Shown piece by piece: positions 12,747 through 40,311 of a stretch of 64,000 nt of DNA. This stretch comes from Poseidonia sp. (GTDB taxonomy: Archaea; Thermoplasmatota; Poseidoniia; Poseidoniales; Poseidoniaceae), in the NCBI GenBank assembly GCA_965661285.1, contig CBFIDD010000001.1:276753-340752 (forward strand), read 5' to 3'. The translations under genes were made by a program, and so were the position numbers. A model generated the notes under the pieces. It did no database searches, was not told the DNA's origin, and saw only the letters and a program-made list of their open reading frames with translations. How positions within the stretch are numbered: position 1 is the first letter of the stretch; each line of letters starts with the position of its first letter.

Positions 12747-14402
12747 GTGGATGTCTACGGGGCGTCGAGTTCTGATGAGACGGTTTCACCGTCATGGCTT
12801 AAGCACCCCGCTTTGGCCATTGGTGTCGGGTTTCTCCTGGCCTTTGGCGAGATGATCGTCCGTTTGCTCAGTGGTAAGAATACAGTGGACGCCATTTGGC
12901 CCCACGCTGTTCGTTCGCTGGAATGGACCATGACACTGCGCAACGCTCCAACACTGACGCTGACCTTCATGTTCATCGTGGCTGGGGCAGCCTACGCCTT
13001 ACGAAAAGCCATCACACGGCATGAGCGCCAACCGGGTTGGACGCTGTTCCCTCTCGCTTGTGTGGGTTTCCTGCTCGGGCTCATCTCGCTTCACGTTCTG
13101 ATGGATGTCTTCTACCTTCGAGGTGCGTTTCTTCTTCTCCCGACGCTCATGGGGTGGACGTTGGCCTGCTTGCTCGTGGGGCTTTGGGGACCTCCGGTCT
13201 TGCGCCGTTCGGGCGAATCTAAGGTGGCCCCCGCTCGGGTGGTCCACATGCTCGGCGTGTTTTTCGCAGCCTGGCTCGTTATGCCGGGTGTCCCGGCCGT
13301 CGTCGGCTTTGCACCCGCACCCCCGGCAACTCCCTCGATGGGCTACGGCTCCTTCCCCGGACCCTTCACGGTGGAACAATACCGCTCGCCCTACACGCTT
13401 CCTGACGAGGTGCTTGCGGTTCAGGGCGATTTGGAGGACGATGTGGAATTTAGCGTGTACATCACCCTGCCCAACCTTCCCGAAGACATCACCTTCAGCA
13501 GCATGCCGTTGGCGGTTCTCCTCCACGGATTTGGCTATCCTGATGTTGACGCCTACCAGGATTGGATCAATCACCTTGCTGGAAAAGGGATGGCGGTCGC
13601 CTTCATTCAATACCCCTCCGACCTTCGTCCAGAAGGGCATGAAACGCACGAAGCCACCTACGACCAAGGCATGACGGATTACCTGCAACACGTCCAACGA
13701 GACCTTGCGATTCGAGCTGCCCTTGACCATCTGGATGCGATTCTGCTTCAACCAGAGCGAGAACCCCAGCTGGAAGAACACCTCGGTCAGCGCCATGTTG
13801 ACCCGTCGGTGCTGTGGGCAGGCGGCCACAGCCTGGGTGCTGCTTACACATTCATCACGCTCGACGATGTGCTGAAACATGGATGGGGCAGTCGCGCTCT
13901 CGTGGTTGCCCTCGAATCGCCTGCACATCGCCCCATGCAGCCTCATCTCCACCCTGACCTCTCCCAACTTCCCAACGAGACACTGGTCCAAATCGGAATT
14001 CCGGAAGACGACATGACCGTGGGTGTCTGCCCCGGAGCGTTCCACCAACAACTCTTTTCTTCGCTCCCCGAAGAGCGCAACCAACTTCTCGAAATTCAAT
14101 CCGACCTCTACGGGTTCCCACGACTGGTCGCTAGCCACTACCTCCAAACCGACCCGGCCCACGACACCCTCTCCGATTGGAGTTTTTACCGACGCGTCGA
14201 CGCCCAAGCGGATTACCTGGTCGCCATGGGGCGAGAAGACACCTTTACGGCCGATTGGGCCTATCAGTATCTGACGGACGAAACCATGCTGACCGACATG
14301 GGAGCGTGGTCCGACGGCACGCCCGTGTTGCCGCTGATTTGGCACACCAACGCCATTGAGGAAGTCTCTGCGTTCCAGGACTGCCTTGCGAACACAACTT
14401 GA
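12747..14402 (+). CDS. Membrane-anchored alpha/beta hydrolase (esterase/lipase-like)
   Basis: N-terminal TM helices; HGFG oxyanion loop; GHSLG nucleophile elbow. Confidence 0.8.
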   Translation: MDVYGASSSDETVSPSWLKHPALAIGVGFLLAFGEMIVRLLSGKNTVDAIWPHAVRSLEWTMTLRNAPTLTLTFMFIVAGAAYALRKAITRHERQPGWTLFPLACVGFLLGLISLHVLMDVFYLRGAFLLLPTLMGWTLACLLVGLWGPPVLRRSGESKVAPARVVHMLGVFFAAWLVMPGVPAVVGFAPAPPATPSMGYGSFPGPFTVEQYRSPYTLPDEVLAVQGDLEDDVEFSVYITLPNLPEDITFSSMPLAVLLHGFGYPDVDAYQDWINHLAGKGMAVAFIQYPSDLRPEGHETHEATYDQGMTDYLQHVQRDLAIRAALDHLDAILLQPEREPQLEEHLGQRHVDPSVLWAGGHSLGAAYTFITLDDVLKHGWGSRALVVALESPAHRPMQPHLHPDLSQLPNETLVQIGIPEDDMTVGVCPGAFHQQLFSSLPEERNQLLEIQSDLYGFPRLVASHYLQTDPAHDTLSDWSFYRRVDAQADYLVAMGREDTFTADWAYQYLTDETMLTDMGAWSDGTPVLPLIWHTNAIEEVSAFQDCLANTT

Positions 14403-14427
14403 AAAGGAATACAAGAGATTTGTAACC

Positions 14428-14853
14428 ATGGCGGAAGCCCATGTTACCAACGATGTCAAATCGTTGTGGAAGTGGATAGGGGGATCGGCTTTCCTCGCCT
14501 CCATGTGTTGCTTCCCAAGCGTCGTTCTCGTCCTCTTTGGGCTTGCCAGCGTTTCAAGCGCAGCAGCCCTGTCAAACGATTTGTATTGGGGGACCAACGG
14601 TATGTGGTGGTTCCGACCGCTTTTGACGGCGCTCAGCGCAGGTCTTGTCGCCCTCGGCCTGTTCATTTATTTCCGAAACCAAGGCATCTGCTCACTTGAC
14701 GAGGCAAAACGCCAGCGAAAGCGGATTGTCAACACGTCGTTGGTCGTGTTCCTGTTGTCAACCATCACGTACATCGTGTTCAATTTCGTCGTGTTGACCG
14801 AACTCGGTGTGGCCCTTGACCTGCCGTGGGAGAGCAGCCGATTGTGGAATTGA
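14428..14853 (+). CDS. MerT/MerF-like small heavy-metal transporter
   Basis: ASMCCFP Cys pair in TM1, 'FRP' before TM2, loop Cys (GICSL), 3 TM. Confidence 0.6.
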   Translation: MAEAHVTNDVKSLWKWIGGSAFLASMCCFPSVVLVLFGLASVSSAAALSNDLYWGTNGMWWFRPLLTALSAGLVALGLFIYFRNQGICSLDEAKRQRKRIVNTSLVVFLLSTITYIVFNFVVLTELGVALDLPWESSRLWN

Positions 14854-14854
14854 T

Positions 14855-15625
14855 TCAGGCACCGCTTCGTTGGGTTTTACACCCAACACCCCAATCCGGC
14901 TCGGCCTCCATCGCCCTGCGTGTTTGTTCGAGAAGCACGTCCTCGGGCGTCGGTGAGGTAGGGGTTGCGGACGTGTACGCCAGCGATAAATGATAACCGC
15001 TTTCCGTCCAATATTGCAATTGGATTTTTGATTTTTCAATTGAAATTTGGTCGGTTTCATTCTCAATTGGAATTTCAATTTCCCGGGGGTTGAGGTGCAT
15101 CCCTTGGCCCAGACATTTTTGCACCGCTTCCTTCCCCGTCCACAAACGGAAAACATGCTCCGGTGCTTTGCGAAGGCGCTCGAGTTCGCTGCCTTTGGCC
15201 ATCATATCGAAGGCGTTCTCTGCGAGGGTTCGGTCAACGGGTTCTGCATCAAGTCCCACCCGAAGAGCAGGGGGTGCGAGGGCGACAAACGCCATGCCGT
15301 CACTGTGAGAAATCGAAACATTCGGTAGCGGCGTTCGTCTCCAAACACCTTGAATGAAATGGATGGAAGGTGCCCTGAACTCGTCCCTTCGTACTTCCAG
15401 CACCGAGAGGTCGCCCACGCCCCACCATTCGAGCGCCTCTCCCAAGAGGCGGCGGCCCGTCAAGTGTTCACAACGACGCTTTCCGGTGACGAACGTCTGA
15501 ACCTCGCTCGCCTGTGCAAGAGGAACCTCCGCAAGGTTCCAGTCCCGCACGGGCATGACAAACACCTCCACCTTTCCATCGGGAGGCGTGAGCCGTTGAA
15601 TCCCCACGCCAGACCCCTCGCTCAT
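14855..15625 (-). CDS. 4'-phosphopantetheinyl transferase (Sfp-type)
   Basis: SISHS, VGLDAE and WTGKEAVQK motifs; ATGA overlap with the megasynthase stop codon. Confidence 0.92.
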   Translation of the reverse strand: MSEGSGVGIQRLTPPDGKVEVFVMPVRDWNLAEVPLAQASEVQTFVTGKRRCEHLTGRRLLGEALEWWGVGDLSVLEVRRDEFRAPSIHFIQGVWRRTPLPNVSISHSDGMAFVALAPPALRVGLDAEPVDRTLAENAFDMMAKGSELERLRKAPEHVFRLWTGKEAVQKCLGQGMHLNPREIEIPIENETDQISIEKSKIQLQYWTESGYHLSLAYTSATPTSPTPEDVLLEQTRRAMEAEPDWGVGCKTQRSGA

Positions 15626-18600
15626 CGCTCCAGTGAAAACCGTTGGTTGTCATCAACCGTAGCCATGGCTTTGAGTTGCAACCCTTTGAGGGCCAACACA
15701 GGAGCATCGTCCTCACCGACGATAACAACGTCGTGAACGGTGATGCCATCACCCGGGGCGCCAACTTGGAGGCTTCGCAACCGAAGCGTTTCATCAGCAT
15801 CGGGAACCCTCAGCATGGTCGACCAGGCGATACCCACGGGAAGGCTGCTGTAGCCAAGCAGTTCCATGGCCACGAGGCCTGCGTTCTGGAAGCCAGCTTC
15901 GATCAGCATCGGGAGCGCTTCGAGCAACACCTGCTCACCGTCAGATTCCAAGGCAAACTGGTCTGTTTCGGGGAGTTGATGTCGCATCAACGCCAGCCCG
16001 TCAATACCTTGTCGGCCTTCATCACCAACGCCTCGAAGCACACCTCCGTGAGATTGGAAGCGTGGGCCGTGGAAGTACCGGTCGTAGATGAAGGAGGCGG
16101 GATGGAGCACATCGCCCGATGGAGGTGTGCCCGTTTCGGGTAATTCATCGACTTCACCTTGCAAGAACGGCCGCAGGTCTTCGTGCTTCTCGATAAGACG
16201 AACAAGCGCCGAGTGGTGTTCTCGCTCGCCGAACACTTCGCCCTTTGAGTTGGCCAAATCTGACACCAAACGACAACGCACCCATGTAAGGTCGCCTTCG
16301 GAGCGTTCGATATTGACCTCAACACGAACCGTCATCGGGCCTTTCAGAAGTTTGACGGGCAGCCCAAAGCTGACCTCTTCAAAACCAGCTAAACATGTGG
16401 TGGGGAGGAGAAGCAGCGAGGATTGGGCAAACATTTCGAGGGCCATCACGCCAGGGTGGTAAGGGACGCCCTCAATGGCATGGTCGGTCAAGAAAGGATG
16501 GTCCTCCTCCGAAAGGGTGGTCTGGGTGACCATGTGCTGGTGTTCTTCCAAGGCCACGACCTTGTCGACGAACGGGAACCGTGTGGGGTCAGCGATGGTG
16601 GCGGCCATGCTCGGAGGCAACTTCAGCGGTGCTTCTCGGAACGAATCAAAGCGGTCCATCACGCCCAGCGTACCGCACCCAAGCACCCTGCGTTTTCCAC
16701 CCTGAAGGGCTTCGGCAACGAAGAGGGCCACGCCGTCCTCAACGGCGAGCGTCTCAATACCTGCAGCAGCGAAGACCGCTTCAATGGAGCCTCGGGTGGC
16801 CATGCCAACATCGCGCCAACCCGTCCAACCGATGGCCACCGCCCTGCAGGCCGTGGTCGCCGTCAGGCGTGCCATTTCAGCATCCAGGACCGAGTTGGCG
16901 GCAGCGTAGTCTGTTTGTCCGCCGTTTCCAAACCGACCGGCCACGCTGGTGAAACAGCAAGCGAAGTCGGGAACGTCCCGTCCCGAAGCCTGAACGGCCG
17001 ACATCAAAGCCCGCCAACCGTCAATCTTCACCCGAACAACCCGATCGAACACCTCGTAGGCTTTGTCGGCAACGAGCTTTGAGTCTTCCAAACCTGCGCC
17101 GTGAACGATTCCGGTGATGGGGCGTCCAAGCGACGCCCCAAGTTGTGCAAGGCCTTCGTGGTCCATCACGTCGATGGAGTGGTAGGTAGCCTGATTGCCG
17201 GTTTGAACGATGGCGTCCAGCGTGAGATAGACATCGCGACTGCGAGTAAAGCGTTGCCACGCAGTATTCCATTCCACCATGGTGACCTTTCCGGTTTCAC
17301 TGGCCTCGATGAGGCGCTCACGCAGGGCGTTCTTCTCCTCAGCGAGTTGGTCTTCGGTCCAGCCAATCCAATCGGCGGTCGATTCGATAAGGGTTGAGCG
17401 ACCAAGCAACTCGAAGTGCGCTCCGGCCTTTGGACTCGCTTGAGCGACGCCGATGATGGACGCAGCCGTCACACCAGAGCCACCGCCGGACACCAACCAC
17501 GTATCTTCGGCTGTCAACGGTTGGACCTCCTCCACAACGTCCTCTGCGAAAGCGACCAGCGACCAGCGGCGTCCGTCTCGGTCAAGACCAATCTCGACTT
17601 CTCCCGCAAGACCGAGCAGGTCCTTTTCGATGCGCTGTGCAGCATCGTCGGCCTCCAAAACAAAGTCAGGATGAAGGTCCAGCGCACGACAACGAAGGTC
17701 GGGACGCTCGAAGGCATACGACTTCGTGATGCCGCTGGCGGCACATTGGATCGCATTGAAGCGGTCGCCCTTGTTTCCGTGCCGTCCGTCGAGAGAAGAA
17801 ACAGAGGCGATAAAGCCGGAGGAATCAGTTGGGATGCTCTGGCCCAATTCCTTGAGAAGGCCAAACCAGCCCTGGGCTGCGAGCGCGATTTGAGAGGATG
17901 GATAGGTGTCTTCGGACCACTGCTCTGATGCGAGTTTCATCGGCGCCATGTGAACCAGGCCTGCAAGGCGAACGCCGGCGAGTTGGGTTGCAATCCAAGC
18001 CAAATGCTCGGGTTGTTCGGGGTCGGCTCGGAACACGGTGCGACCGGCTTCTTCCTGACGAGATGCATCGCGAATGCGGCTCTCAAAGCCAATGCGAACA
18101 GCGCTCAAACCTCGCGCCTCCATGCGCTGACAAAAGGCTTCAGCGATGCCCCAGCCGTCGTCAGACACGACCACCGTGCCTTCGGGATGCAGCGGAGCGG
18201 CCACACCCGGACATCCTTCTATTTCCACTTGCCATCGGCGAGGACCCTCTGCGTGGGTCGAGGACGAGACGGGGGCAGAGATTTCGGCCACCTCATCAGC
18301 AACCTCAACCTCAGGTGCCTTTGGCGTCGGGCTTCCGCCCTGCATCTTCACGATGTAGGCGGTGAAGTGGTTCAGCGTCGGATGGTCTGCGAGCACAAAG
18401 TCTTCGTCAACGGGCAGCGAGAAGCGGTCCCTGATTTCGGCCATGATCTCGGCTTGTTTGACCGTATCAATGCCCAGTTCACCCTCGAGATCCTGGTCCA
18501 ATTCGATGAAATCCGCTGGGTAGCCTGTGTGGTCGACGACGACCGAAACGAGCACACCTTCGATTTCGGGGTGCGATTGGTTGGCCGCTGTGGAAGGCGA

Positions 18601-21600
18601 TGGTGCGGTGGGCGCAGGCGTCGGGGCGGGCGTTGCGGGGGCTGGTGCTGGAGGAGTGGCTCTAGTCGCTGTTTGAGCGGCAGCACCGCCCTGCATGCGC
18701 TGGATGTAGCCAATCATGTGATTCAGTGTCGGGTGGTCGGCCAGGACGAAGTCCTCGTCAACGGGCAGACTGAATTTGTCGCGAATATCAGCCATGATTT
18801 CGGCTTGCTTGACGGTATCAATACCCAATTCGCCCTCGAGGTCCTGGTCGAGTTCAATGAAATCAGCGGGGTAGCCCGTGTGATCAACGACCACGGCGAC
18901 GACCGTGGCGGTCATCTCGGCATCGTCAAGCGGAGCGGCAGGAGCAGAAGCTGCGGGGGCTGATGCTGGAGCTTGAGCCGAAACGGGTTCGGGGACGGCC
19001 AGTGCAGCGACTTCTGCGGGGGTTGATGGTGCGGGCTCGCCACTCGTCATGCGTTGAATGTAGCCGATCATATGGTTGAGGGTGGGGTAGTCGGCGAGCA
19101 CGAAATCCTCGTCGATGGGGAGTCCAAACCTGTCGCGTATGTCAGCCATAATTTCGGCTTGCTTCACCGTATCAATGCCCAATTCGCCCTCAAGGTCTTG
19201 GTCGAGTTCAACAAAGTCAGCCGGATATCCGGTGTGGTTGACCACCACGTCGATCACGGTGGCGACCATGTTCTCGTCGTTCACGACAGTTGGGGCAGCA
19301 GCGGGTACAGCGGGTGCAGCGGGTGCTGCAGGAGCGAGCGAGGATTCCACCGGCGCGGCCGTTGGTGCTGGTTCCGGCTTCGGGGAAGGCTGCATTGGTT
19401 GAGGGGTGGACACTGAGGGCTTGCCCTCCCACGGTGCTGTGTACGGCCATGGCTCGCCTTGGATGCCACCGTGGAGGTTGTTCTCTCCGTCGACATATGC
19501 CACGAGTTTGTTCTGGAGAACCCGCATGACCACATCGTCCGTGCCCGCAAGTCCTCTGGCCCAAGCGAGTAAGCGAGCACCGTCGATACGCTCGCCTTCC
19601 ACTGGCCATCTTCGCATCAACGACAAAGCGATTTGTGAACCAAAGCCAGCTGCAAAGCGCAAACCGTATTCCAATTCGGGATAGTCGCCTCCGGTGGAAA
19701 GGTTGAGGTCGCCCAATTCAGGGTCCTTTTCCTTGTGGTTGGCGATGGGGGGAATGCGTCGTGTCTTCAGGCCGTAGAACATGCTGGCATCTTCGATACC
19801 AACCGCCATCGGATGGCCGGTGAAGCCTTTCGTATTGGCAATCACCAATTTGTTGGTCGATTCACCAAAGGTGTCGCGCAGCGCCTTGACCTCGGATTGG
19901 GCCGAACCGCCACGGGCCGGCGTGTAGGTTTCGTGGGAGAAGAAGACCGTGTTCGGGGCCATGGCGTGTCGGTCAAGCCCCCAGCGTCGCTCCATATCGG
20001 TGATGAAGCTGTTGACCACCTGGCCCACGTGCTCCACATCCAAGCGCGTGCCGTGGTAGGCAGAATTGGCGGTGGTGGAACCGAGGAACTCAGCGATGGG
20101 TTGCACGCCACGCTGTTGGGCCTCTGAGTTGCGCTCCACGACAAAGGCGGCTGCACCCATGCCCAAAATGAGCCCGTTTCGACGGCGATCAAAGGGCAGG
20201 GCGGTTTCTTCGACGACGTTGTTGGTCGCTGCGGCACCCGAGGCGGCAAAGCCGCCAGCGATCCACTCCCAAAGGTCGTCGCCCGTCACATCGTCACCGC
20301 TGATGATGACCACGCGGTCAACCCGGCCGGCGTCAAGCCAGTCCTCTGCAACACCAAAAGCAGCGGTTGCTGAGGCACATGCGAGGTTGATGGTGGTGTT
20401 TGGTCCTCGAATACCGGTGTATTGTGCGAACTGAGAATGGCCCATGTTCAGCGTTTGGAACAGGTAGCGTCGGTCGAACCGACCCTCACCGTCATCGCCG
20501 TTGGTCTTGGCGTGTTTGGACGCCATCTGAAGGCCGGGGAAACAGGATGAGAAGACGATGCCCGTGCGCTCTCGTTGGATTTGAGGCACCTGCCAGTTGC
20601 GAATCAGGCGGAGTCCACCCTTTCCGATTTGTTCAACCGGCGTCAGCGGAATACCTGCGTCTCGCAGCGCCAGCAAACCAGCAGCCACCGCCAGTTGGGT
20701 ACTGATATCCCACGCCACGATGGCTTTCGGGTCAATACCAAATTCTTCGGCGAGGTCAAAGGCACCCTTCAGCCCTGCAAGCTGAGGGATGTCACCAAAC
20801 ACGGTGGCTTGGTCCATGTTGACCGAGCCATCTCTGCCCTTGATGAGGCGAACGATGTTTTTGTCCAAGAGACGCTGCTTGTATTCGTCCGAAACTTCGC
20901 TGATGCAGGTCTCGCCTCGAACCAGTTTCTCAAAGGCGTCTTCCGAGAAGACCCGGTCCATACCGGGCAAACCGAGCGAAACACCGGTGACCACGTACGG
21001 GTCAGCATCCCGCCTCGTGCCCTGTTGAAGCATCGAGACGGTGGAGACCGGCGCCACCTTGAGATTGGAGGGGGCTGAAACCGAGGTCATCGGCGACCAG
21101 GAGGAGGGCGGTGTGCGAACCCAGCGAGCGAGGTCTCCAGCCGTTTGGGCGGCGGTCCCATCAAACTCAGGGTCGATTTCTGCCTCCGAAGCGATGGTGG
21201 CCACGACCCGTTGGACTTCGTCGGCGGTGAGGCCCAAACCCGCTGTGAGCGATACCTGGCCGTGACAAAAGGAGGCAGGATAGCCGCTGTGAGCCGCGAT
21301 TCGGTCGCCGACATAGGCCCTGATGGCGCGGTCGAGTGCAAACTGTGAATCCATCGGGCCGGTATGGACGGTCGCTGCTGGTGCGACTGGGGTCGGGCTT
21401 GCCCCACTTCCAGGCAACGGTCGTGCCCGGGTGCGCAGGGATTCCTGTGCGGCACTGGAGGATGAGGAGGAGAGAGGAGCAGCCTGGCGGGCTTCAAGCG
21501 GTCCCGCCTTGAAAGCGTCCTGGAGCGCATCCGAATCAAGCGAAGGCCAAGATGGAGGGCGACCGGCGAGCGCCAAGGCACCAAGAGCCGTCATGAAACT

Positions 21601-24453
21601 CGCAATACCGCCCTGTTTTGGATGGTTGGTCATGATGGGCACGTGAGGCTGACCCTCGAGGATTTGCATAGCAAACATGGTCAACGCACGCTTTGGACCG
21701 ACCTCAACAAACAAGCGTCCGCCGGCAGCGTACATGGTTTCGATCTGCTTGGTCCATTCTACCGAGGAAGCCATTTGCGGAGCGAGTTTCTCCAAAATGG
21801 CCGTCTTGGCGTCGTCGCCTTTGTCGGGATAGAACGTGCCGTCGACATTGGCGGTGATGGGGACCTCAGGCCAGCGGATTTCCAAGCCCTCCAAGAACCG
21901 GCGAAGCGGTTCGTTTGCTGGGGCTACGATTCGAGAGTGGAAGGCGTGTGAGGTCGCCAAGGCAACGCAGGAGAACCCTTGCGCCTCAAACATCTCCATG
22001 GCGGCCTTGACGGGTTCGGTTTCTCCGGCAATGACCGTCATCTTGGGCGAGTTTTTGTTGGCCGCGATCACATACCCCTCGGTCGCTTCAAGCACCGCCT
22101 CGACCGCCTCATAGGGCGCGGTTACGCTGGCCATCAAGCCCTTGTCGTCGATTTCAACGGCGCCCATTTCCGTTCCGCGCGCTGCGGCGGCGCGCAGTGC
22201 TCCGTCCATATCCAAAATACCAGAGGACATGAGGGCGGCGTATTCACCCAACGAGTGGCCTGCGACCATGTCAGGTGAGTGCCCGTAGGTTTGGAGAGTC
22301 CGCTCAATCGCCAAGTCGGCGGTGAGCATCGCAGGTTGCGTGTATTCGGTCTGCTTGAGTTTGTGCTCTGCTTCTTTCAATTCATCCTTAGAGAGCGCCG
22401 AGCGCAAGACAAATCCTGAGAGGGTCTCGCCTCCCAGCACCTCAACCATCGTTTCATCGGCCTGTTCCCAAACGGCTGCGGGGGCCGTGAAGCGTTGCAC
22501 CAAATCGGCGGTCATCCCGACGTATTGACTCCCCTGCCCGGGGTACATGTGAACGGTTTTTGCCTCGGCCGGCATGGCAGGCTGGTCGGTCAGCAACACA
22601 CCTTGTGCCTGCAAGAAGCCCCACTTCTCGGCGTCCATCATGGCCTGGCTCGCCAGGGTTTGTCGCTTCGCAAATTCGGCCCAAGACGTCGCCACGAGTG
22701 CCATGCGAACCGCTTGATTGGAATCAAAGGCCGAACTCGCGGTTTGCAGCGCCTCAGAGAGTCGGCGACCCTTCGGGTCGTCATCGAACAAGGGGGCGTC
22801 AAACGAGACCTGAGTCAGCTGTGCATGAAGCGCCTCAAGGGAGTCATCGGAGAGCAGCAACACGCCGCCTTCAACGGCTTTGAGCGCCTCGTGCGACATG
22901 GTTGCAGGAATGGACGGGTCAAAAATCGAGGGAGCACTGACCTCCGCTTGCCCGCTGTAGGCCGTCCAACGGGCGTCCCAATCCGAAGCCAACGGCACGT
23001 GATAGTCGGGCTCATAGCCCTCGAGAGCGATGTGGAAGTTCGTGCCACCAAAGCCGAACGCCGAAACACCTGCACGTCGAGGATGGCCTTCGGGCCGTGG
23101 CCATTCAAGCGGTGCCGTGGGAACAAAGAAGGGAATGTTGGACCAGTCCACCGTTGGATTGGGCGTCTCGAAATTCGCACTCGGAGGGATGGTTCGGTGG
23201 TGCAAAGCCATGACCGATTTCATAATGCCCGCAATGCCAGCAGCTGCCTTGAGGTGCCCAATTTGGGATTTGATGGAGCCAACGGCGACGTTGCCGCTCC
23301 CCTCAACGCCCGTCCACAACCTGGAGAGCGTGGAAAGTTCGGTTGCATCACCAACCTTGGTCGACGTCCCGTGAGCTTCCACCAGTTCAACCGTCGATGC
23401 AGGGTAGCCTGCTTGGCTGTACGCTCGGGCAATGGCCTGAATTTGACCTCGCTGGCTCGGGGCCGTGATGCCTTTTCCTCGGCCATCAGAAGAGCCCCCA
23501 ACCCCGCGTATCACGCTGTAGATTTCATCATCATCCCGAATGGCATCGCTCAGCCGCTTCAGCACCAGAACACCTGCACCCTCACCCATGACGAAGCCGT
23601 TGGCTCGGGCGTCAAAAGGCGACGAGTGGGAGGGCGAAAGGGCGCCGATAGCCGAGAACTTCGCAAAGGTTGCAGGGTCCATGGTTCGGTCGGTTGCCCC
23701 TGCGAGCATGACGTCCACCTGGCGTGTTTGAAGCAGGCGACACGCATCGAGAACTGCAGCCATCGAGGAGGCGCATGCGGCGTCCATGGCGTGATTGGGC
23801 CCTTGCAAATCCAGCAGATTCGCGACACGTCCCGAAACCACGTTGGCCAGTTCACCGGGCATGGTGTCTTCATCCACCCGAGGCGTGCCCTCAAGAATCG
23901 CTTCGGCAAACTCGTCTGCTTTTCCTTCGGGCAGACCGTGTTGCTTCGCCACGTTCGTTGTGTGGTTGGACCACACGCGAATGTTCGACAAGTTGCGGTT
24001 TTCTCCACCAAGCGCATTGGCGAAGACGACCCCGGTTTTTGTTCGGTCAATGTCGCGTGAGTCCCCATCATAACCAGCGTGCTCGATGGCGTCTGCGGAA
24101 ACGGAAACGGCCCACAACTGACACGGATCGATTTGCGGCAATGTTCCGGGTGGTTGACGCCACCTGCGCCAGTCAAACTCAGCATCGGAGACCAATGCGC
24201 CAATCTTGGCGTAGGTGTACCCTTCGGTGTGTTGCCCGGGGCCGCCCTCTTTCCAGAAATGGTTGATTGGACCGGGCCAACGCCCCTCTGGAAGCGGTCG
24301 GATGCTCACTTTGGCGTCGAGAATGTTTTGCCAAAACGCATTGATATCCGGCGCATCTGGCATGAGGGCGCCAAGACCGATGACGGCAATCGGCTCGAAG
24401 GGCCCCTGCTCGATCCCCTCGCATGGTTTGCCGTCTGCTGTCGTCAACGTCAT
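15622..24453 (-). CDS. Iterative type I polyketide/fatty-acid megasynthase: KS1-AT-pseudoACP-KS2-ACP-ACP-ACP-KR-DH
   Basis: KS1 DAACASS/EAHGTST/KSQIGHL; AT PGQGSQ, GHSLG, HAFH; KS2 NLACASA/SHETYT/GHP; 3x ELGIDTVKQAEI; KR GGGSGVT, HGAG, YAAAN; DH HAIEGVPYHP; SD GAGGTG before the ATG. Confidence 0.95.
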   Translation of the reverse strand: MTLTTADGKPCEGIEQGPFEPIAVIGLGALMPDAPDINAFWQNILDAKVSIRPLPEGRWPGPINHFWKEGGPGQHTEGYTYAKIGALVSDAEFDWRRWRQPPGTLPQIDPCQLWAVSVSADAIEHAGYDGDSRDIDRTKTGVVFANALGGENRNLSNIRVWSNHTTNVAKQHGLPEGKADEFAEAILEGTPRVDEDTMPGELANVVSGRVANLLDLQGPNHAMDAACASSMAAVLDACRLLQTRQVDVMLAGATDRTMDPATFAKFSAIGALSPSHSSPFDARANGFVMGEGAGVLVLKRLSDAIRDDDEIYSVIRGVGGSSDGRGKGITAPSQRGQIQAIARAYSQAGYPASTVELVEAHGTSTKVGDATELSTLSRLWTGVEGSGNVAVGSIKSQIGHLKAAAGIAGIMKSVMALHHRTIPPSANFETPNPTVDWSNIPFFVPTAPLEWPRPEGHPRRAGVSAFGFGGTNFHIALEGYEPDYHVPLASDWDARWTAYSGQAEVSAPSIFDPSIPATMSHEALKAVEGGVLLLSDDSLEALHAQLTQVSFDAPLFDDDPKGRRLSEALQTASSAFDSNQAVRMALVATSWAEFAKRQTLASQAMMDAEKWGFLQAQGVLLTDQPAMPAEAKTVHMYPGQGSQYVGMTADLVQRFTAPAAVWEQADETMVEVLGGETLSGFVLRSALSKDELKEAEHKLKQTEYTQPAMLTADLAIERTLQTYGHSPDMVAGHSLGEYAALMSSGILDMDGALRAAAARGTEMGAVEIDDKGLMASVTAPYEAVEAVLEATEGYVIAANKNSPKMTVIAGETEPVKAAMEMFEAQGFSCVALATSHAFHSRIVAPANEPLRRFLEGLEIRWPEVPITANVDGTFYPDKGDDAKTAILEKLAPQMASSVEWTKQIETMYAAGGRLFVEVGPKRALTMFAMQILEGQPHVPIMTNHPKQGGIASFMTALGALALAGRPPSWPSLDSDALQDAFKAGPLEARQAAPLSSSSSSAAQESLRTRARPLPGSGASPTPVAPAATVHTGPMDSQFALDRAIRAYVGDRIAAHSGYPASFCHGQVSLTAGLGLTADEVQRVVATIASEAEIDPEFDGTAAQTAGDLARWVRTPPSSWSPMTSVSAPSNLKVAPVSTVSMLQQGTRRDADPYVVTGVSLGLPGMDRVFSEDAFEKLVRGETCISEVSDEYKQRLLDKNIVRLIKGRDGSVNMDQATVFGDIPQLAGLKGAFDLAEEFGIDPKAIVAWDISTQLAVAAGLLALRDAGIPLTPVEQIGKGGLRLIRNWQVPQIQRERTGIVFSSCFPGLQMASKHAKTNGDDGEGRFDRRYLFQTLNMGHSQFAQYTGIRGPNTTINLACASATAAFGVAEDWLDAGRVDRVVIISGDDVTGDDLWEWIAGGFAASGAAATNNVVEETALPFDRRRNGLILGMGAAAFVVERNSEAQQRGVQPIAEFLGSTTANSAYHGTRLDVEHVGQVVNSFITDMERRWGLDRHAMAPNTVFFSHETYTPARGGSAQSEVKALRDTFGESTNKLVIANTKGFTGHPMAVGIEDASMFYGLKTRRIPPIANHKEKDPELGDLNLSTGGDYPELEYGLRFAAGFGSQIALSLMRRWPVEGERIDGARLLAWARGLAGTDDVVMRVLQNKLVAYVDGENNLHGGIQGEPWPYTAPWEGKPSVSTPQPMQPSPKPEPAPTAAPVESSLAPAAPAAPAVPAAAPTVVNDENMVATVIDVVVNHTGYPADFVELDQDLEGELGIDTVKQAEIMADIRDRFGLPIDEDFVLADYPTLNHMIGYIQRMTSGEPAPSTPAEVAALAVPEPVSAQAPASAPAASAPAAPLDDAEMTATVVAVVVDHTGYPADFIELDQDLEGELGIDTVKQAEIMADIRDKFSLPVDEDFVLADHPTLNHMIGYIQRMQGGAAAQTATRATPPAPAPATPAPTPAPTAPSPSTAANQSHPEIEGVLVSVVVDHTGYPADFIELDQDLEGELGIDTVKQAEIMAEIRDRFSLPVDEDFVLADHPTLNHFTAYIVKMQGGSPTPKAPEVEVADEVAEISAPVSSSTHAEGPRRWQVEIEGCPGVAAPLHPEGTVVVSDDGWGIAEAFCQRMEARGLSAVRIGFESRIRDASRQEEAGRTVFRADPEQPEHLAWIATQLAGVRLAGLVHMAPMKLASEQWSEDTYPSSQIALAAQGWFGLLKELGQSIPTDSSGFIASVSSLDGRHGNKGDRFNAIQCAASGITKSYAFERPDLRCRALDLHPDFVLEADDAAQRIEKDLLGLAGEVEIGLDRDGRRWSLVAFAEDVVEEVQPLTAEDTWLVSGGGSGVTAASIIGVAQASPKAGAHFELLGRSTLIESTADWIGWTEDQLAEEKNALRERLIEASETGKVTMVEWNTAWQRFTRSRDVYLTLDAIVQTGNQATYHSIDVMDHEGLAQLGASLGRPITGIVHGAGLEDSKLVADKAYEVFDRVVRVKIDGWRALMSAVQASGRDVPDFACCFTSVAGRFGNGGQTDYAAANSVLDAEMARLTATTACRAVAIGWTGWRDVGMATRGSIEAVFAAAGIETLAVEDGVALFVAEALQGGKRRVLGCGTLGVMDRFDSFREAPLKLPPSMAATIADPTRFPFVDKVVALEEHQHMVTQTTLSEEDHPFLTDHAIEGVPYHPGVMALEMFAQSSLLLLPTTCLAGFEEVSFGLPVKLLKGPMTVRVEVNIERSEGDLTWVRCRLVSDLANSKGEVFGEREHHSALVRLIEKHEDLRPFLQGEVDELPETGTPPSGDVLHPASFIYDRYFHGPRFQSHGGVLRGVGDEGRQGIDGLALMRHQLPETDQFALESDGEQVLLEALPMLIEAGFQNAGLVAMELLGYSSLPVGIAWSTMLRVPDADETLRLRSLQVGAPGDGITVHDVVIVGEDDAPVLALKGLQLKAMATVDDNQRFSLER
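18342..19275 (-). repeat. Three tandem near-identical ACP domains separated by Ala/Pro-rich linkers
   Basis: HTGYPADF.ELDQDLEGELGIDTVKQAEIMA.IRD.F.LP.DEDFVLAD.PTLNH three times (~19275-19048, ~18915-18693, ~18560-18342). Confidence 0.93.
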
Positions 24454-24462
24454 GTGAACACC

Positions 24463-25254
24463 TCAATTCATGATGCTTTCCGGCACCATCGTGATGGAAT
24501 AGCCCGCATCAACGTAAACGCATTGACCTGTGACGCCCGCTGAGAGTGGACTGGCAAGCCACAAGGTTGCACCGGCCACATCGGCCTGACTGACGTTTCT
24601 TCGGAGCGGTGCGTTCGCTTCAACGTGATCTAAAATTCGGTCAAATCCAGGTATGCCGCTGGCAGCGATGGTCCGTATGGGCCCGGAGGAAATGGCATTG
24701 ACACGATGACCCTCTGGCCCGAGATGGCAGGCGAGTTCACGTGTCCAGCACTCCAAAGCCGCTTTTGCCATGGACATGATGCCGTAACTGGGAACGAATC
24801 GATTGGAAGCCGCATACGTCAGTGTGATGGTTGAGGAACCGGGATTGAGGTAGGGGAGGGCGTGCTTGAGGCAGCGCTGAAGCGAATTCGCCGAGATGGT
24901 CATGGCGGTGTTGATGTCGTCGTCTTCAACAAAAAGAATGGGCCGGTCAAAACACGAGCGAGGCGCAAACCCGATGGCGTGGACCAAGATGTCCGCCTTC
25001 TTACCGGGGTGGTCTGCGGCAAAGGCGGTGAAAAATTCCTGCGTGGTGCTGTCCGAAGCGACGTCGAGCGGATAGAAACCACCGATGGCGGGAAGTTCGT
25101 CCTTGAGTTTGAACACACGACTCATGAATCGCTTCTGGTACCCCAGATAGAGCGTGACCCCAGCCGCTGCCAATTGCTTGCAAATCGCCCATGCAATGGA
25201 GTCTTCGCTTGCCACTCCAAACACAAAGGCCGTTTTTCCTTCCAGTCCAAGCAT
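24463..25254 (-). CDS. fabI: Enoyl-ACP reductase (FabI family)
   Basis: GVASEDSIAWAI, HAIGFAP, YGIMSMAK (YxxMxxxK), VNAISSGPIRT, VDAG; ends 9 nt before the megasynthase start. Confidence 0.93.
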   Translation of the reverse strand: MLGLEGKTAFVFGVASEDSIAWAICKQLAAAGVTLYLGYQKRFMSRVFKLKDELPAIGGFYPLDVASDSTTQEFFTAFAADHPGKKADILVHAIGFAPRSCFDRPILFVEDDDINTAMTISANSLQRCLKHALPYLNPGSSTITLTYAASNRFVPSYGIMSMAKAALECWTRELACHLGPEGHRVNAISSGPIRTIAASGIPGFDRILDHVEANAPLRRNVSQADVAGATLWLASPLSAGVTGQCVYVDAGYSITMVPESIMN

Positions 25255-25371
25255 GAAAATCCTCCTCGGGGATTAGGTGTAGTGCGCTACACCAAGCCTT
25301 TGAGTGTTACCTCTCAAATCGTGCCACATCGGCCGAGTTCAAGACCGTAGAAGGAGCGCCAAAACGCAAGG

Positions 25372-26469
25372 TCAAAGGTCGGCGAAAACGTCGTCAAATT
25401 CGTCTTCTTCGTCCTCAGGGAACAAATCGTCCAGATCGGAGAGGTCCAAATCATCCAAGTCGTCATCCTCTGGCTCGTCCTCCACATCAACGGGAGGCAC
25501 ATACATCGGTTGAGCGTTGGCTCGTCGACGAATAGTTCGAGCCAAAGCCACAACAAAGATCAGGCCGAAAAGAACGGCAGCCCCGATGCTCCCGTACATC
25601 ACGAGGGTGTCTTTGTCAACCTCTTCCAAGCCGCCGCCAAGTCCGCCAGCCGTGTTGCTGACCTCGAGTTGAATGGAGATGCTGGTCTCGCTCACGGGGG
25701 CTTCGCCATCGTTCTCACTTTCGGCTTGGAAAATAACCTGGAGCCGTTCCTCAGCGGCCACTTCCGAGGGCGCCCTGATGGTCAATTCGCGCACCGTTGA
25801 AACGCCGCCTTCGGTGACGTCTTCAGCCACGAACGTGCCGCTAGGGAAGGTGAAACCAGCCTGCTCAAGTTCGGCGGCATTGGTGATGGAAACACGAATC
25901 TTATCGTCGTCGTTACCGTTGTTTTGGAATTGGAACGTGATGGCGACTTCATCGCCCTGAGCCATGGTTCGTGTGCTCTTGTCAGAAATGTCAAGGTCCA
26001 CCATACCAAAGGTCGCTACGTTGAGGTCGCCGTTCACCGTTGCGTTTGACGAGAGCCCTTCCGGCCAGTCAAGCATCCCGACATTGGTGACCGTAGCGGT
26101 CAAGGTGAATTCGTAGGAGACCTCGGCTGAAAGGCGGGTTTGACCGTTGAAGGTGACTTTGAAATCTTCTTCTTCATCAGGACCGAGGTCAAAGGAATCC
26201 TCCTCCAACATCATGTCGACTTCAAGACCGTCCCACTCCTTTTCGACAGCGATGGTTTCTTGGAACGAGGAGGGGTTCCTGACGGTGCAGGTGATCTCCA
26301 CCACGGGTTCACTGAGCGGATGAACATCGAGTTCGGGCTGTTTTTCGTCGCAGTCGATCTCAACGCCGGGCGCCGTGGGAGCTTGAGCTTGGACAGAGCC
26401 TGCGAGACTGCACAGCAAGAGCGCCACCACAACCCATCCAAAGCGGCGTGAAGCTAGCATGGCCCTCAT
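25372..26469 (-). CDS. Secreted Ig-like protein with C-terminal TM and acidic tail (choice-of-anchor T-like, tentative)
   Basis: Signal peptide, beta-rich domains with N.GN..D motif, TM, Asp/Glu-rich tail; start moved to MRAMLASRR. Confidence 0.7.
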   Translation of the reverse strand: MRAMLASRRFGWVVVALLLCSLAGSVQAQAPTAPGVEIDCDEKQPELDVHPLSEPVVEITCTVRNPSSFQETIAVEKEWDGLEVDMMLEEDSFDLGPDEEEDFKVTFNGQTRLSAEVSYEFTLTATVTNVGMLDWPEGLSSNATVNGDLNVATFGMVDLDISDKSTRTMAQGDEVAITFQFQNNGNDDDKIRVSITNAAELEQAGFTFPSGTFVAEDVTEGGVSTVRELTIRAPSEVAAEERLQVIFQAESENDGEAPVSETSISIQLEVSNTAGGLGGGLEEVDKDTLVMYGSIGAAVLFGLIFVVALARTIRRRANAQPMYVPPVDVEDEPEDDDLDDLDLSDLDDLFPEDEEDEFDDVFADL

Positions 26470-26539
26470 GGTCCCCTGTGGTTTCTCTTTCATCAATGTG
26501 ATGGGGTGTTGTCGGCAAAAATATGCGTTCATAAACACC

Positions 26540-27409
26540 TCATTCTTCTCCGTAGACAACGGCCGGCAGGACGCTGTGCGTGTTCCACATGACGTCTTCG
26601 TCAACGCCTGCAGCCAGCAATTGTTGGGTCCGTTTCGGCACGGTTTTGGGGCCCAGCACGGCACCGGGACGACGAGGGTCATCCATGTAATCGGTTTCGA
26701 GGAAAAACCCGTTTTTCGCCATGCGATGGGTTTCAACCAACCGTTCCAAAGCGCCTTTTCCGCACAACACGCTGGGCGTGAGGCCGTGGGTGTGTTCAGC
26801 ACGAACATCGGGGGGAGAATAATGGCGCACCAGTTTTCTCAAATCCATCCCTTGACGAAGCGCTCGACGAGACAAATCGCCGTAGGTGTCCTCTCGCTCG
26901 CCTTCCACGTGAAGTTGAAGTGGCAATCCCTCTTGAGCAGCAAGGTGCATCGTTTCATCGAGAAGTTGGTTTGAAAGGTCCCAAATTTCGTCCGAAACAG
27001 GCCAATGAGGTCGCCCCACCTCGCCGATGGCGTGAGCCTGCCCCTCGTGGACAAACCCAAGGGCGGCTTCAATGGAATGGCGGTAATTCTCAATCGCACG
27101 CTCCTTTCCAGCATCCCCTTCGTTGGAGACCCAGCGCTCGAATTGATGGGCGAAGGCCGCAGGATGCGGGCCGAGAACGACACGTACGCCAAGGCCAACG
27201 TCCTCTCGTACCGACGCCGCCATCCGAATCGTGTCGGCGTAGGCGTTGCGATGGCCTTCAAAGGTCTCGGGAGGTGCGGAAAAATCAGGGCAGTGAACGA
27301 GCACGAGGTCGGTTCCGCCCACGCGCTGAAAAGAGCGTGCTGCATCAAGGAACAATCCCTTTCGGTTGAGGTGAAAGTGGTTGTCCAAAATCGGACCGTC
27401 ATAGACCAT
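26540..27409 (-). CDS. TatD-family metal-dependent hydrolase/nuclease (archaeal type)
   Basis: DNHFH, AIGEVGRPH, LQLH, LETDYMDDP.RPG motifs. Confidence 0.88.
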   Translation of the reverse strand: MVYDGPILDNHFHLNRKGLFLDAARSFQRVGGTDLVLVHCPDFSAPPETFEGHRNAYADTIRMAASVREDVGLGVRVVLGPHPAAFAHQFERWVSNEGDAGKERAIENYRHSIEAALGFVHEGQAHAIGEVGRPHWPVSDEIWDLSNQLLDETMHLAAQEGLPLQLHVEGEREDTYGDLSRRALRQGMDLRKLVRHYSPPDVRAEHTHGLTPSVLCGKGALERLVETHRMAKNGFFLETDYMDDPRRPGAVLGPKTVPKRTQQLLAAGVDEDVMWNTHSVLPAVVYGEE

Positions 27410-34718: not shown

Positions 34719-34849
34719 GGTGTCACCTGCACCTGTGCGAAGGTTTGCCCCCATAAAATCTCGTCGCTTTCCCGATACCGTACCGTATTCCTCTTCCTTT
34801 GCTTACTGTTGTGAACATGAGTTATGAGGGTGGACCTTGTGGAACGAGC

Positions 34850-40225: not shown

Positions 40226-40311
40226 GGACACCCGTCGGCCGACGCAATCTATGAGCAAAGCGGTCCGACGGTGAGAATTTTACCCGACGCCGAGCGGAGA
40301 CCCCCCGCCCT

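What the first reader, a model, noticed from the sequence alone, without database searches (positions are those of the whole stretch)
14855..25254. Self-contained ACP-dependent type I FAS/PKS operon in an archaeal genome (fabI, megasynthase, PPTase)
Seen: three co-oriented genes, with 9 nt between fabI and the megasynthase (GAGGTG SD) and an ATGA overlap into the PPTase. The 2943-aa protein has KS, a malonyl-type AT (GHSLG, HAFH), a second KS, three ACPs, KR and a PKS-type DH, but no ER or TE. The adjacent FabI would supply enoyl reduction in trans and the PPTase would activate the carriers, so a full reductive elongation cycle is encoded. Established: archaea make isoprenoid ether lipids and generally lack ACP-dependent FAS; PUFA synthases use PfaD-type ERs and FabA-like DHs, neither of which is here. 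Inference: a distinct archaeal fatty-acyl/polyketide lipid synthase of unknown product, lying among archaeal core genes (carS, cdc6) with no mobility genes or obvious compositional break.
Basis: partly seen in the sequence, partly recalled or inferred. Interest (0 to 1): 0.95.

Follow-up and report, generated by a model that had tools for sequence, protein, structure and literature searches.

The report
Archaeal fatty-acid megasynthase with threonine carriers
A conserved three-gene operon in an abundant marine archaeon encodes its only carrier-protein-based fatty-acid or polyketide synthase, from a family shared with bacteria, and its carrier domains carry threonine where all well-studied carriers have serine.

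Summary
Three co-oriented minus-strand genes encode a FabI-like reductase, a 2943-aa megasynthase and a PPTase, with the stated 9-nt gap and ATGA overlap.

The operon is archaeal, not chimeric. Near-identical proteins are named Poseidonia sp. The gene order recurs in 16 of 16 related loci, and contigs from four independent studies bridge its edges.

It is not a distinct archaeal invention. It matches the 'Type R secondary lipid synthase' cluster of Shulse and Allen 2011 (KS-MAT-CLF-ACP(3-6)-KR plus a downstream PPTase; product unknown). Relatives occur in Chloroflexota, Myxococcota and 68 of 201 sampled Thermoplasmatota.

New here:
- FabI is present in exactly the 33 of 41 relatives that have the megasynthase.
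- The second KS keeps Cys/His/His, so it is not a Cys-less CLF.
- These are the only KS, ACP and PPTase domains found in this genome.
- All three carriers read LGIDT, as do 396 of 412 carrier motifs in 149 family representatives. E. coli ACP S36T is reported unmodifiable.

Best reading: an iterative, fully reducing fatty-acyl synthase working on threonine-linked phosphopantetheine. The product and the release step are unknown.

The parts
24463..25254 (-). FabI-like enoyl-ACP reductase, 263 aa (P0002); proposed trans-acting ER
   Evidence: PF13561 at 233.6 bits, E 3e-69. Y157-x6-K164 motif. All NCBIfam FabI equivalog models score below their cut-offs; the best is 220.2 against 391. Adjacent to the megasynthase in 16 of 16 related loci. 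Present in exactly the 33 of 41 relatives that have the megasynthase.
15622..24453 (-). PfaA-like iterative megasynthase, 2943 aa (P0001): KS1-AT-(vestigial ACP)-KS2-ACPx3-KR-DH
   Evidence: Pfam and NCBIfam scans. TIGR02813 PfaA scores 868.6 bits, below its cut-off of 1010.1. Found at 69-89% identity in 24 of 24 same-genus genomes.
22921..24396 (-). KS1 (residues 20-511), PKS/PfaA-type ketosynthase with C-terminal extension
   Evidence: PF00109, PF02801 and PF16197. ACAS at 226, HGTST at 361 and GHLKAA at 399.
21655..22554 (-). Acyltransferase (residues 634-933), malonyl-type motifs
   Evidence: PF00698 at 128.7 bits. GHSLG at 732 and HAFH at 836. FabD TIGR00128 scores 193.8 bits, below its cut-off of 260.9. 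That HAFH indicates malonyl specificity is recalled, not tested.
21229..21327 (-). Possible vestige of a carrier domain (residues 1043-1075) without an attachment residue
   Evidence: Matches only the first half of a home-built family ACP HMM, at 2.6 bits and E 0.0075. The motif position reads GLTAD. This is a weak hint only.
19582..20994 (-). KS2 (residues about 1154-1624), FabF-like second ketosynthase with intact catalytic residues
   Evidence: phmmer against PDB FabF chains, best E 2.7e-26. Cys, both His and the Lys align with those of FabF. NCBIfam fabF scores 136.8 bits. A Cys motif sits at this position in 66 of 69 full-length family representatives.
19042..19278 (-). Carrier domain 1 (residues 1726-1804), LGIDT; Thr1762 codon ACG at 19168-19170
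   Evidence: PF00550. The Thr aligns with the pantetheine Ser of the PigH and AcpM carriers. Codon read.
18685..18924 (-). Carrier domain 2 (residues 1844-1923), LGIDT; Thr1880 codon ACC at 18814-18816
18337..18579 (-). Carrier domain 3 (residues 1959-2039), LGIDT; Thr1997 codon ACG at 18463-18465
16810..17226 (-). Ketoreductase catalytic part (residues 2410-2548)
   Evidence: PF08659 at 82.7 bits. YAAAN at 2516.
15625..16575 (-). PKS-type dehydratase (from residue 2627 to the C-terminus)
   Evidence: PF21089 over residues 2627-2717 at 37.7 bits. HAIEGVPYHP at 2658. That the domain extends to the C-terminus is inferred.
14855..15625 (-). Sfp-type 4'-phosphopantetheinyl transferase, 256 aa (P0003)
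   Evidence: PF01648 at 41 bits against a cut-off of 25. It is the only ACPS match in the genome. ATGA overlap with the megasynthase. Lies downstream in 16 of 16 related loci. Fused to the C-terminus of the megasynthase in 5 of 9 family members scanned.

Best explanation
The operon encodes the only acyl-carrier-dependent chain-building system found in this Poseidonia (Marine Group IIa) genome. It is an iterative megasynthase of the 'Type R secondary lipid synthase' family, with a FabI-type enoyl reductase acting in trans and its own Sfp-type PPTase.

Proposed cycle (inferred from domain content):
1. The PPTase arms the three tandem carrier domains.
2. The AT loads malonyl units from malonyl-CoA.
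3. KS1 and/or KS2 condense.
4. KR, DH and FabI reduce each beta-keto group completely.
5. The product is therefore a saturated or mostly saturated fatty acyl chain of unknown length.
6. There is no thioesterase domain, so the chain is probably passed on by an acyltransferase. A 541-aa PlsC-family paralog that tracks the synthase is the candidate.

The carrier attachment residue is Thr, not Ser. The cognate PPTase is therefore inferred to phosphopantetheinylate threonine.

Shown: the genes, domains, motifs, conservation, co-occurrence and family membership. Inferred: every catalytic step, the product and the Thr modification.
For: - Domain set KS-AT-KS-ACPx3-KR-DH, with no ER or TE family.
- KS2 keeps the Cys, His, His and Lys of FabF.
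- In the 93%-complete genome these are the only PP-binding domains, the only full KS domains and the only ACPS. No FabA/FabZ and no NMO-type ER were found.
- The order FabI-megasynthase-PPTase holds in 16 of 16 loci from three families.
- FabI is 93-99% identical within the genus, against 76-88% for the megasynthase and 55-75% for the PPTase.
- FabI and the megasynthase occur in the same 33 of 41 relatives and are both missing from the same 8, which are 91-97% complete.
- In a phylum draw, 45 of the 46 genomes with FabI are among the 68 with the megasynthase; 1 of the 133 without the megasynthase has FabI.
- Other family members carry an ER fused in cis (N-terminal NMO in 2 of 9 scanned) or a fused PPTase (5 of 9). 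These fusions point to both partnerships.
- Thr carriers: 15 of 17 Poseidoniales loci; 134 of 150 representatives have only Thr-type motifs; 396 of 412 motifs are Thr.
- Two sister lineages have Ser in every copy, nested among Thr-type sequences. This fits the idea that the hydroxyl is what matters.
- No other Ser is conserved across the three carrier cores.
- Acyl-CoA carboxylase parts are present: a biotin carboxylase in the window and three carboxyltransferases.
- GpsA and three PlsC-family genes are present.
- The 541-aa PlsC paralog is in 28 of 33 megasynthase-positive and 0 of 8 megasynthase-negative relatives.
Against: - No product, expression or modification data exist. No RNA run was listed.
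- E. coli ACP S36T is reported as unmodifiable and non-functional (passages of PMC3340395), so Thr carriers could in principle be inactive.
- All NCBIfam FabI equivalog models score below their cut-offs.
- FabI was not adjacent in 0 of 20 bacterial loci.
- 23 of 68 megasynthase-positive Thermoplasmatota lack a FabI match at E<=1e-40, so full reduction is not proven for the family.
- Two intact KS domains and a PfaA-like build also fit a specialised lipid.
- PlsC, the 4HBT thioesterase and the biotin carboxylase occur with or without the synthase, so they say nothing about linkage.
- PlsX and PlsY were not found.
- The co-occurrence counts come from related genomes. The 8 losses lie in four genera and may be few events.
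Confidence: 0.6

Rival explanations
1. It is a specialised ('secondary') lipid or polyketide synthase, not a general fatty-acid synthase. Reduction would be incomplete in some cycles, or the chain unusually long. Possible products are a hydroxylated, unsaturated or very-long-chain lipid, comparable to heterocyst glycolipid or PUFA-type products. FabI would act only on some intermediates.
For: - The best NCBIfam match is PfaA, the PUFA synthase subunit.
- Shulse and Allen class the family among secondary lipid synthases of unknown product.
- There are two intact KS domains and tandem carriers.
- The operon was not found in 10 of 16 genomes of one Poseidoniales family (91-97% complete), so it is dispensable there.
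- Bacterial hosts such as Chloroflexota have the megasynthase without an adjacent FabI (0 of 20 loci).
Against: - This genome has no FabA-type dehydratase/isomerase and no other KS or ACP.
- FabI shows the strongest conservation in the operon and exact co-occurrence with the megasynthase. That fits an obligatory step in every cycle.
Confidence: 0.27
2. The synthase exists mainly to supply octanoyl-carrier for protein lipoylation, as mitochondrial FAS does.
For: The genome holds a LipB homolog above its curated cut-off (110 bits against 83.55). The only carrier domains found in the genome are those of the megasynthase.
Against: - The LipB homolog is found in 35 of 41 relatives, including all 8 without the megasynthase.
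- 5 of 5 such genomes tested have no PP-binding domain at all. LipB therefore does not depend on this synthase.
- Three tandem carriers and a 2943-aa enzyme are more than a trace cofactor supply would seem to need (inference).
Confidence: 0.04
3. The Thr carriers cannot be modified, so the operon is a decaying or non-catalytic relic.
For: E. coli ACP S36T is described as unable to receive 4'-phosphopantetheine.
Against: - Open frames with no internal stops are reported for the full-length matches.
- FabI is 93-99% identical across the genus.
- Thr is kept in 396 of 412 carrier motifs in a family with 13140 hits at E<=0.001.
- All catalytic motifs are intact.
- The PPTase is retained, and fused in some members.
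Confidence: 0.04
4. The operon is bacterial DNA mis-assembled or mis-binned into an archaeal genome.
For: The closest described relatives are bacterial.
Against: - The window lies inside a 594,775-base contig.
- The operon sits next to TatD and TBP in 6 of 7 long-flank loci from other genomes.
- Contigs from four separate studies bridge the PPTase/flank, megasynthase/FabI and FabI/upstream junctions at even depth.
- GC content matches the surroundings.
- Poseidoniales sequences form one clade whose branching follows the families.
Confidence: 0.01

Closest known systems
Type R secondary lipid synthase cluster (Shulse and Allen 2011, PMC3098273; passages read)
   Same: One pfaA homolog with the order KS-MAT-second KS-like domain-ACP(3-6)-KR, followed by a PPTase gene. 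Roseiflexus members align at 42-48% identity over KS1-AT and KS2 and fall in the same family tree. The product is unknown in both.
   Different: - The host is an archaeon; that paper does not mention archaea.
- A FabI gene sits directly upstream here, against 0 of 20 bacterial loci.
- The domain the paper calls CLF keeps its catalytic Cys here.
- The passages read do not mention a DH domain or the Thr carriers.
PUFA synthase subunit PfaA (NCBIfam TIGR02813)
   Same: Best-scoring NCBIfam model. KS-AT, tandem carriers, then KR-DH in one polypeptide, with a dedicated PPTase.
   Different: - The score of 868.6 is below the cut-off of 1010.1.
- An extra KS lies between the AT and the carriers.
- No PfaC-type FabA dehydratase and no PfaD-type NMO reductase were found in the genome.
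- FabI stands in their place.
- The carriers have Thr, not Ser.
Heterocyst glycolipid synthase-like PKS (antiSMASH class HglE-KS)
   Same: A PfaA-related KS-AT-carrier-KR build. A mining survey, since retracted, lists HglE-KS and T1PKS clusters in Poseidoniaceae.
   Different: The architecture of HglE itself is recalled, not tested. No glycolipid tailoring genes were seen among the ORFs scanned next to the operon.
Enediyne PKSE-type iterative PKS (recalled, not tested)
   Same: Related to PUFA synthases. Has KR-DH followed by a C-terminal PPTase domain, as in 5 of 9 family members scanned here.
   Different: PKSE has one KS and one carrier and makes a polyene. Here the PPTase is a separate gene and a FabI reductase is attached.
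Bacterial type II FAS enoyl reductase FabI
   Same: PF13561 fold and the Tyr-x6-Lys motif.
   Different: It scores below every NCBIfam FabI equivalog cut-off. It would serve a type I megasynthase rather than a free ACP. No other type II FAS component was found in the genome.

Membership tests
Type R secondary lipid synthase cluster (Shulse and Allen 2011) | pfaA homolog with domain order KS-MAT-(second KS-like, 'CLF')-ACP(3-6)-KR | tested here: met
   KS 20-511, AT 634-933, KS2 about 1154-1624, three ACPs 1726-2039, KR 2410-2548. A DH follows the KR.
Type R secondary lipid synthase cluster (Shulse and Allen 2011) | PPTase gene directly downstream | tested here: met
   ORF 14855-15625 with PF01648 and an ATGA overlap.
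Type R secondary lipid synthase cluster (Shulse and Allen 2011) | Homology to a named member (Roseiflexus) | tested here: met
   The Roseiflexus loci L037 and L040 match colinearly at 42-48% identity over KS1-AT and KS2. L037 is in the same family tree.
Type R secondary lipid synthase cluster (Shulse and Allen 2011) | Placement in the Type R clade of their proximal-KS tree | not tested
   Their data set and the other cluster types were not at hand.
Chain length factor (Cys-less KS partner) | Loss of the active-site Cys | tested here: not met
   The KS2 Cys aligns with the FabF catalytic Cys; both His and the Lys are also kept.
PUFA synthase PfaA (TIGR02813) | Score at or above the curated cut-off | tested here: not met
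   868.6 bits against 1010.1.
PUFA synthase (pfaABCD system) | FabA-like dehydratase/isomerase and PfaD-type NMO reductase partners | tested here: not met
   PF07977 and PF03060 were not found in the 93%-complete genome.
Acyl carrier domain (PF00550) | Match to the PP-binding profile | tested here: met
   Three stretches; 38.5-39.3 bits each in the genome scan.
Acyl carrier domain (PF00550) | Conserved Ser as the phosphopantetheine attachment site | tested here: not met
   Thr stands at the aligned position in all three domains.
FabI enoyl-ACP reductase | PF13561 match above its cut-off and the Tyr-x6-Lys motif | tested here: met
   233.6 bits against 27. YGIMSMAK at residue 157. The meaning of the motif is recalled.
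FabI enoyl-ACP reductase | NCBIfam FabI equivalog cut-off | tested here: not met
   The best model, NF005615, scores 220.2 against 391. All 13 FabI-named models listed are below their cut-offs.
Sfp-type PPTase | ACPS domain above its cut-off, in a protein of about 230-260 aa | tested here: met
   PF01648 at 41 bits against 25; protein length 256 aa. The N-terminal 4PPT_N match is weak (18.4 against 27).
Sfp-type PPTase | Transfers phosphopantetheine to these carriers | not testable with these tools
   Needs mass spectrometry of co-expressed proteins.

The most novel reading that the evidence does not exclude
This widespread synthase family works on O-phosphopantetheinyl-threonine, a carrier linkage that I could not find described. 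In Poseidoniales and other Thermoplasmatota it is the sole de novo fatty-acid synthase and feeds PlsC-type acyltransferases. These abundant marine archaea would then really make ester-linked fatty-acyl (mixed) lipids alongside isoprenoid ethers.
Probability: 0.3. Interest if true: 0.9.

Novelty: new variant of a known kind. Interest (0 to 1): 0.72.

Why it matters
Marine Group II archaea are among the most abundant planktonic archaea, and their membrane lipids are still unknown. They lack the gene for the archaeal glycerol-1-phosphate backbone and have the bacterial-type one (passages of PMC6461757).

This operon is a concrete, clonable, three-gene candidate for de novo fatty-acid synthesis in them. 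It makes the 'mixed membrane' question directly testable.

Separately, the Thr-for-Ser carriers are conserved across hundreds of bacterial and archaeal representatives. They predict either a PPTase that modifies threonine or a new carrier chemistry. Either would revise a textbook rule of FAS/PKS enzymology.

The family's product is also unknown in Chloroflexota, Myxococcota and Acidobacteria, so a result here would carry over widely.

Tried and rejected
- Expression: no RNA holder was listed for the stretch, so nothing can be said about transcription.
- Neighbouring lipid-related genes as partners: the 4HBT thioesterase (39 of 41 relatives), the biotin carboxylase (41 of 41) and the PlsC family as a whole (41 of 41) occur with or without the synthase. 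They give no linkage signal.
- PlsX and PlsY were not found.
- FabI fused to the megasynthase in one Thermoplasmatota family: a long stop-to-stop frame suggested it. The FabI match is in another frame and Pfam shows no such domain in that frame, so it is an adjacent gene, not a fusion.
- Donor lineage: the tree backbone is unresolved and unrooted (12 of 43 inner branches drawn open). No donor or direction of transfer is claimed. The nearest outgroup of the Poseidoniales clade, P0124, has no name.
- Literature:
  - Searches for MGII with polyketide synthase, Poseidoniales with acyl carrier protein, archaea with PfaA, MGII with type I PKS and MGII with 'fatty acid synth' found no description of this operon.
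  - A search for 'threonine instead of serine' with phosphopantetheine found nothing.
  - These searches cover only the held open-access library.
  - Villanueva et al. 2017 and Herlemann et al. 2009 are not held.
- Complex prediction and structure prediction were not used. An enzyme-carrier pair would pass or fail mostly by likeness to solved structures.

Full report
**1. The observation**

Three minus-strand ORFs lie exactly where the finding states: 24463-25254 (263 aa), 15622-24453 (2943 aa) and 14855-15625 (256 aa).
- The first stop, TGA, is followed by 9 nt (GGTGTTCAC) and then the ATG of the large gene. GAGGTG spans the stop.
- The large gene ends and the third gene starts in an ATGA overlap.

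Pfam on the large protein gives:
- KS, residues 20-511
- acyltransferase, 634-933
- a second, weaker KS
- three PP-binding stretches
- KR, 2410-2548
- PKS-type DH, 2627-2717
- no ER or thioesterase family at E<=0.01.

The motifs GHSLG (732), HAFH (836) and HxxxGxxxxP (2658) are present. The small proteins match PF13561 (enoyl-ACP reductase family, 233.6 bits) and PF01648 (PPTase, 41 bits).

The surroundings are archaeal: CarS, TBP and Cdc6. GC content is unremarkable: operon 0.592, window 0.578, genome contigs 0.552-0.580.

**2. It is archaeal and not an assembly artefact**

- The window lies within a 594,775-base contig of a 1.98-Mb genome in 8 contigs, 93% complete.
- The 120 closest database proteins listed are 71-99% identical. 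Where they carry a name, it is Poseidonia sp., Poseidoniales, Poseidoniaceae or Euryarchaeota archaeon.
- The megasynthase is found in 33 of 41 related genomes: 24 of 24 in the genus, 2 of 2 in a second family, and 6 of 14 in a third.
- In 16 of 16 loci fetched from three families, the order FabI-megasynthase-PPTase is kept. In 6 of the 7 loci with long flanks, TatD and TBP lie upstream, as in the window.
- Logan contigs from four runs of four different studies cover the 20-kb stretch at even depth. Single contigs bridge the flank/PPTase/megasynthase junction (12929-15808), the megasynthase/FabI junction (23008-25258) and the FabI/upstream-gene junction (24530-25727).

**3. What family it belongs to**

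A search of 1.84 billion representatives with residues 1000-2100 (KS2 plus the carriers) found 13140 proteins at E<=0.001 and 1121 at E<=1e-30.
- The top 150 are mostly 2000-4000-aa proteins with the KS2 match about 1200-2300 residues in.
- Of the 69 that are at least 2500 aa long and have an AT motif, 66 carry a Cys motif at the KS2 position, and most have 2-4 tandem carriers after it.
- Named relatives are Chloroflexota (Roseiflexus, Chloroploca, Oscillochloris, Viridilinea, Kouleothrix, Caldilineaceae, Anaerolineae, Promineifilaceae), Myxococcota/Polyangiaceae and Leptospiraceae.

Shulse and Allen 2011 (PMC3098273; passages read) describe a 'Type R' secondary-lipid cluster in Koribacter, Solibacter, Elusimicrobium and Roseiflexus. 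[quoted passage not shown] Its product is unknown, and the word archaea does not occur in that paper.

The window's operon fits this description. It aligns colinearly with Roseiflexus loci at 42-48% identity over KS1-AT and KS2.

It is not a PfaA by NCBI's threshold (868.6 against 1010.1 bits). The genome shows no FabA-type dehydratase and no PfaD-type NMO reductase.

**4. Distribution in archaea**

In an even draw of 201 genomes from the window's own phylum (Thermoplasmatota, going by the names), each at least 80% complete, the KS2-carrier region has a match at E<=1e-50 in 68 genomes:
- 26 of 26 in the window's family, counting the window's genome
- 6 of 16 in the third Poseidoniales family
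- several other families with larger genomes: 15 of 15, 7 of 8, 4 of 4 and 3 of 3
- 0 of 3 in the same-class sister family.

I built a quick maximum-likelihood tree of 46 sequences over the KS1-AT-KS2 region (LG+G4, SH-aLRT support only).
- The seven Poseidoniales sequences form one clade with 100% support. Its branching follows the families, as expected for vertical inheritance within the order.
- The 13 named bacterial sequences also fall into one supported clade.
- Other Thermoplasmatota fall into at least three clades on an unresolved backbone.
- I claim no donor lineage.

**5. FabI as the missing reductase**

- At E<=1e-20, FabI is found in exactly the 33 of 41 relatives that have the megasynthase. 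It is missing from the same 8 genomes, which are 91-97% complete.
- In the phylum draw, 46 of 201 genomes have a FabI match at E<=1e-40. Of these, 45 are among the 68 with the megasynthase. The exception is an 88%-complete genome of a family in which 7 of 8 have the megasynthase.
- FabI is adjacent in Poseidoniales (16 of 16 loci) and in one other family (2 of 2 loci). It lies elsewhere in the genome in two further families.
- It is the best-conserved gene of the operon: 93-99% identity within the genus, against 76-88% for the megasynthase and 55-75% for the PPTase.
- Of nine family members scanned, two carry an N-terminal NMO domain (the PfaD/FabK kind of reductase) and five carry a C-terminal PPTase domain. 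So the family acquires an ER and a PPTase in different ways.

Against this reading:
- No FabI lies within the flanks of 20 bacterial loci.
- 23 of 68 archaeal genomes with the megasynthase lack a FabI match.
- All NCBIfam FabI equivalog models score below their cut-offs (best 220.2 against 391). The Tyr-x6-Lys motif is nevertheless present.

These counts come from related genomes, so they overstate independence.

**6. The second KS is not a chain-length factor**

Aligned to solved FabF structures (best E 2.7e-26), KS2 keeps the catalytic Cys, both His and the Lys. Both KS domains therefore look competent. How they divide the work (priming against elongation, or short against long chains) is unknown.

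A 33-residue stretch between the AT and KS2 weakly resembles the first half of a carrier domain but has no attachment residue (2.6 bits). Some relatives have an intact carrier motif at that place.

**7. Threonine carriers**

- All three carrier domains read LGIDT(V). The codons are ACG, ACC and ACG.
- In alignments to solved carriers (PigH, AcpM), this Thr stands at the phosphopantetheine Ser.
- No other Ser is conserved across the three carrier cores.
- The same holds for 15 of 17 Poseidoniales loci. Two sister genomes have LGIDS in every copy.
- It also holds for all 12 loci from other Thermoplasmatota, one of which has one Ser copy beside three Thr copies.
- Across the family, 134 of the top 150 representatives have only Thr-type motifs, 3 only Ser-type, 5 both and 8 none. 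Among 412 motifs in 149 representatives, 396 are Thr and 16 Ser.

Given the strong conservation of the whole operon, the likeliest reading is that the dedicated PPTase accepts Thr. The wholesale Thr-to-Ser change in one lineage fits that reading. Nothing here shows it.

I found no description of natural Thr carriers. Those searches cover only the open-access library held here.

**8. Place in the cell**

In this genome the operon holds the only PP-binding domains, the only full KS domains (the two other matches cover only about 50 positions of the 252-position profile, in 405- and 431-aa frames) and the only PPTase.

Also present:
- three carboxyltransferases and a biotin carboxylase
- a GpsA-type glycerol-3-phosphate dehydrogenase
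- three PlsC-family genes.

PlsX and PlsY were not found.

PlsC as a family, the nearby 4HBT thioesterase and the biotin carboxylase occur whether or not the synthase is present.

One 541-aa PlsC-family paralog is found in 28 of 33 relatives with the synthase and 0 of 8 without it. It is a lead for the release step.

A LipB homolog is present, but it also occurs in all 8 synthase-less relatives. Five of five of those tested have no carrier domain at all. Lipoate supply is therefore not a good explanation for the operon.

**9. What was already in print**

- Rinke et al. 2019 report fatty-acid degradation and the G3P backbone in Poseidoniales. The terms polyketide, acyl and FabI do not occur in its main text; its supplements were not seen.
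- Besseling et al. 2020 and Villanueva et al. 2021 say, citing Villanueva et al. [quoted passage not shown] The cited paper is not held, so I cannot tell whether this gene was meant.
- A mining survey, since retracted, lists T1PKS and HglE-KS clusters in Poseidoniaceae.

**10. Verdict**

It is wrong to call it a distinct archaeal system, because it is an archaeal branch of the Type R family.

What is new here:
- the FabI partnership
- the breadth of the family in Thermoplasmatota
- the intact second KS
- the family-wide threonine carriers.

Product, chain release and carrier chemistry all need experiments.

Noticed in passing
G000:C2:383169-383633 (locus L115), outside the window: A LipB (octanoyl-ACP:protein octanoyltransferase) homolog scores above its curated cut-off. 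It also occurs in all 8 synthase-less relatives. Five of five of those tested have no carrier domain at all, so its acyl donor in those archaea is unexplained.
   Followed up: partly
G000:C1:554910-556532 (L019:433-2058, minus strand), outside the window: A 541-aa PlsC-family acyltransferase paralog is found at E<=1e-50 in 28 of 33 relatives with the megasynthase and 0 of 8 without it. It is a candidate for off-loading the acyl chain. The genomes are related, so the count overstates independence.
   Followed up: partly
window 40312-41319 (-) and 41398-42648 (-): A fatty-acid hydroxylase/desaturase-superfamily protein (PF04116) sits next to an FAD/NAD-binding reductase (PF00667, PF00175). It may be a lipid-modifying oxygenase pair; its relation to the synthase is unknown.
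   Followed up: no
window 38885-40258 (-): Biotin carboxylase gene. Matches in nine same-genus genomes carry 1-2 in-frame TGA and one carries a TAG. These probably lie in the 5' extension of the TTG-started frame, because the Pfam domain begins at residue 14.
   Followed up: no
window 25372-26808 (-): A 478-aa ORF directly upstream of fabI has no Pfam family above its cut-off. Only residues about 100-436 are conserved, and only within the window's family. It is missing between TatD and FabI in the other two Poseidoniales families, so it is not part of the core operon.
   Followed up: partly
window 4721-10342 (+) and 28776-34754 (-): Two giant ORFs: 1873 aa with a subtilase S8 domain, and 1992 aa with no Pfam match. 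The second is partly conserved upstream of the operon in relatives.
   Followed up: no
loci L109 and L111 (other Thermoplasmatota); proteins P0145, P0146, P0147, P0161: Family members vary in build: a PPTase fused at the C-terminus (5 of 9 scanned), an NMO-type reductase fused at the N-terminus (2 of 9), and extra carrier domains ahead of KS1 or between the AT and KS2.
   Followed up: partly
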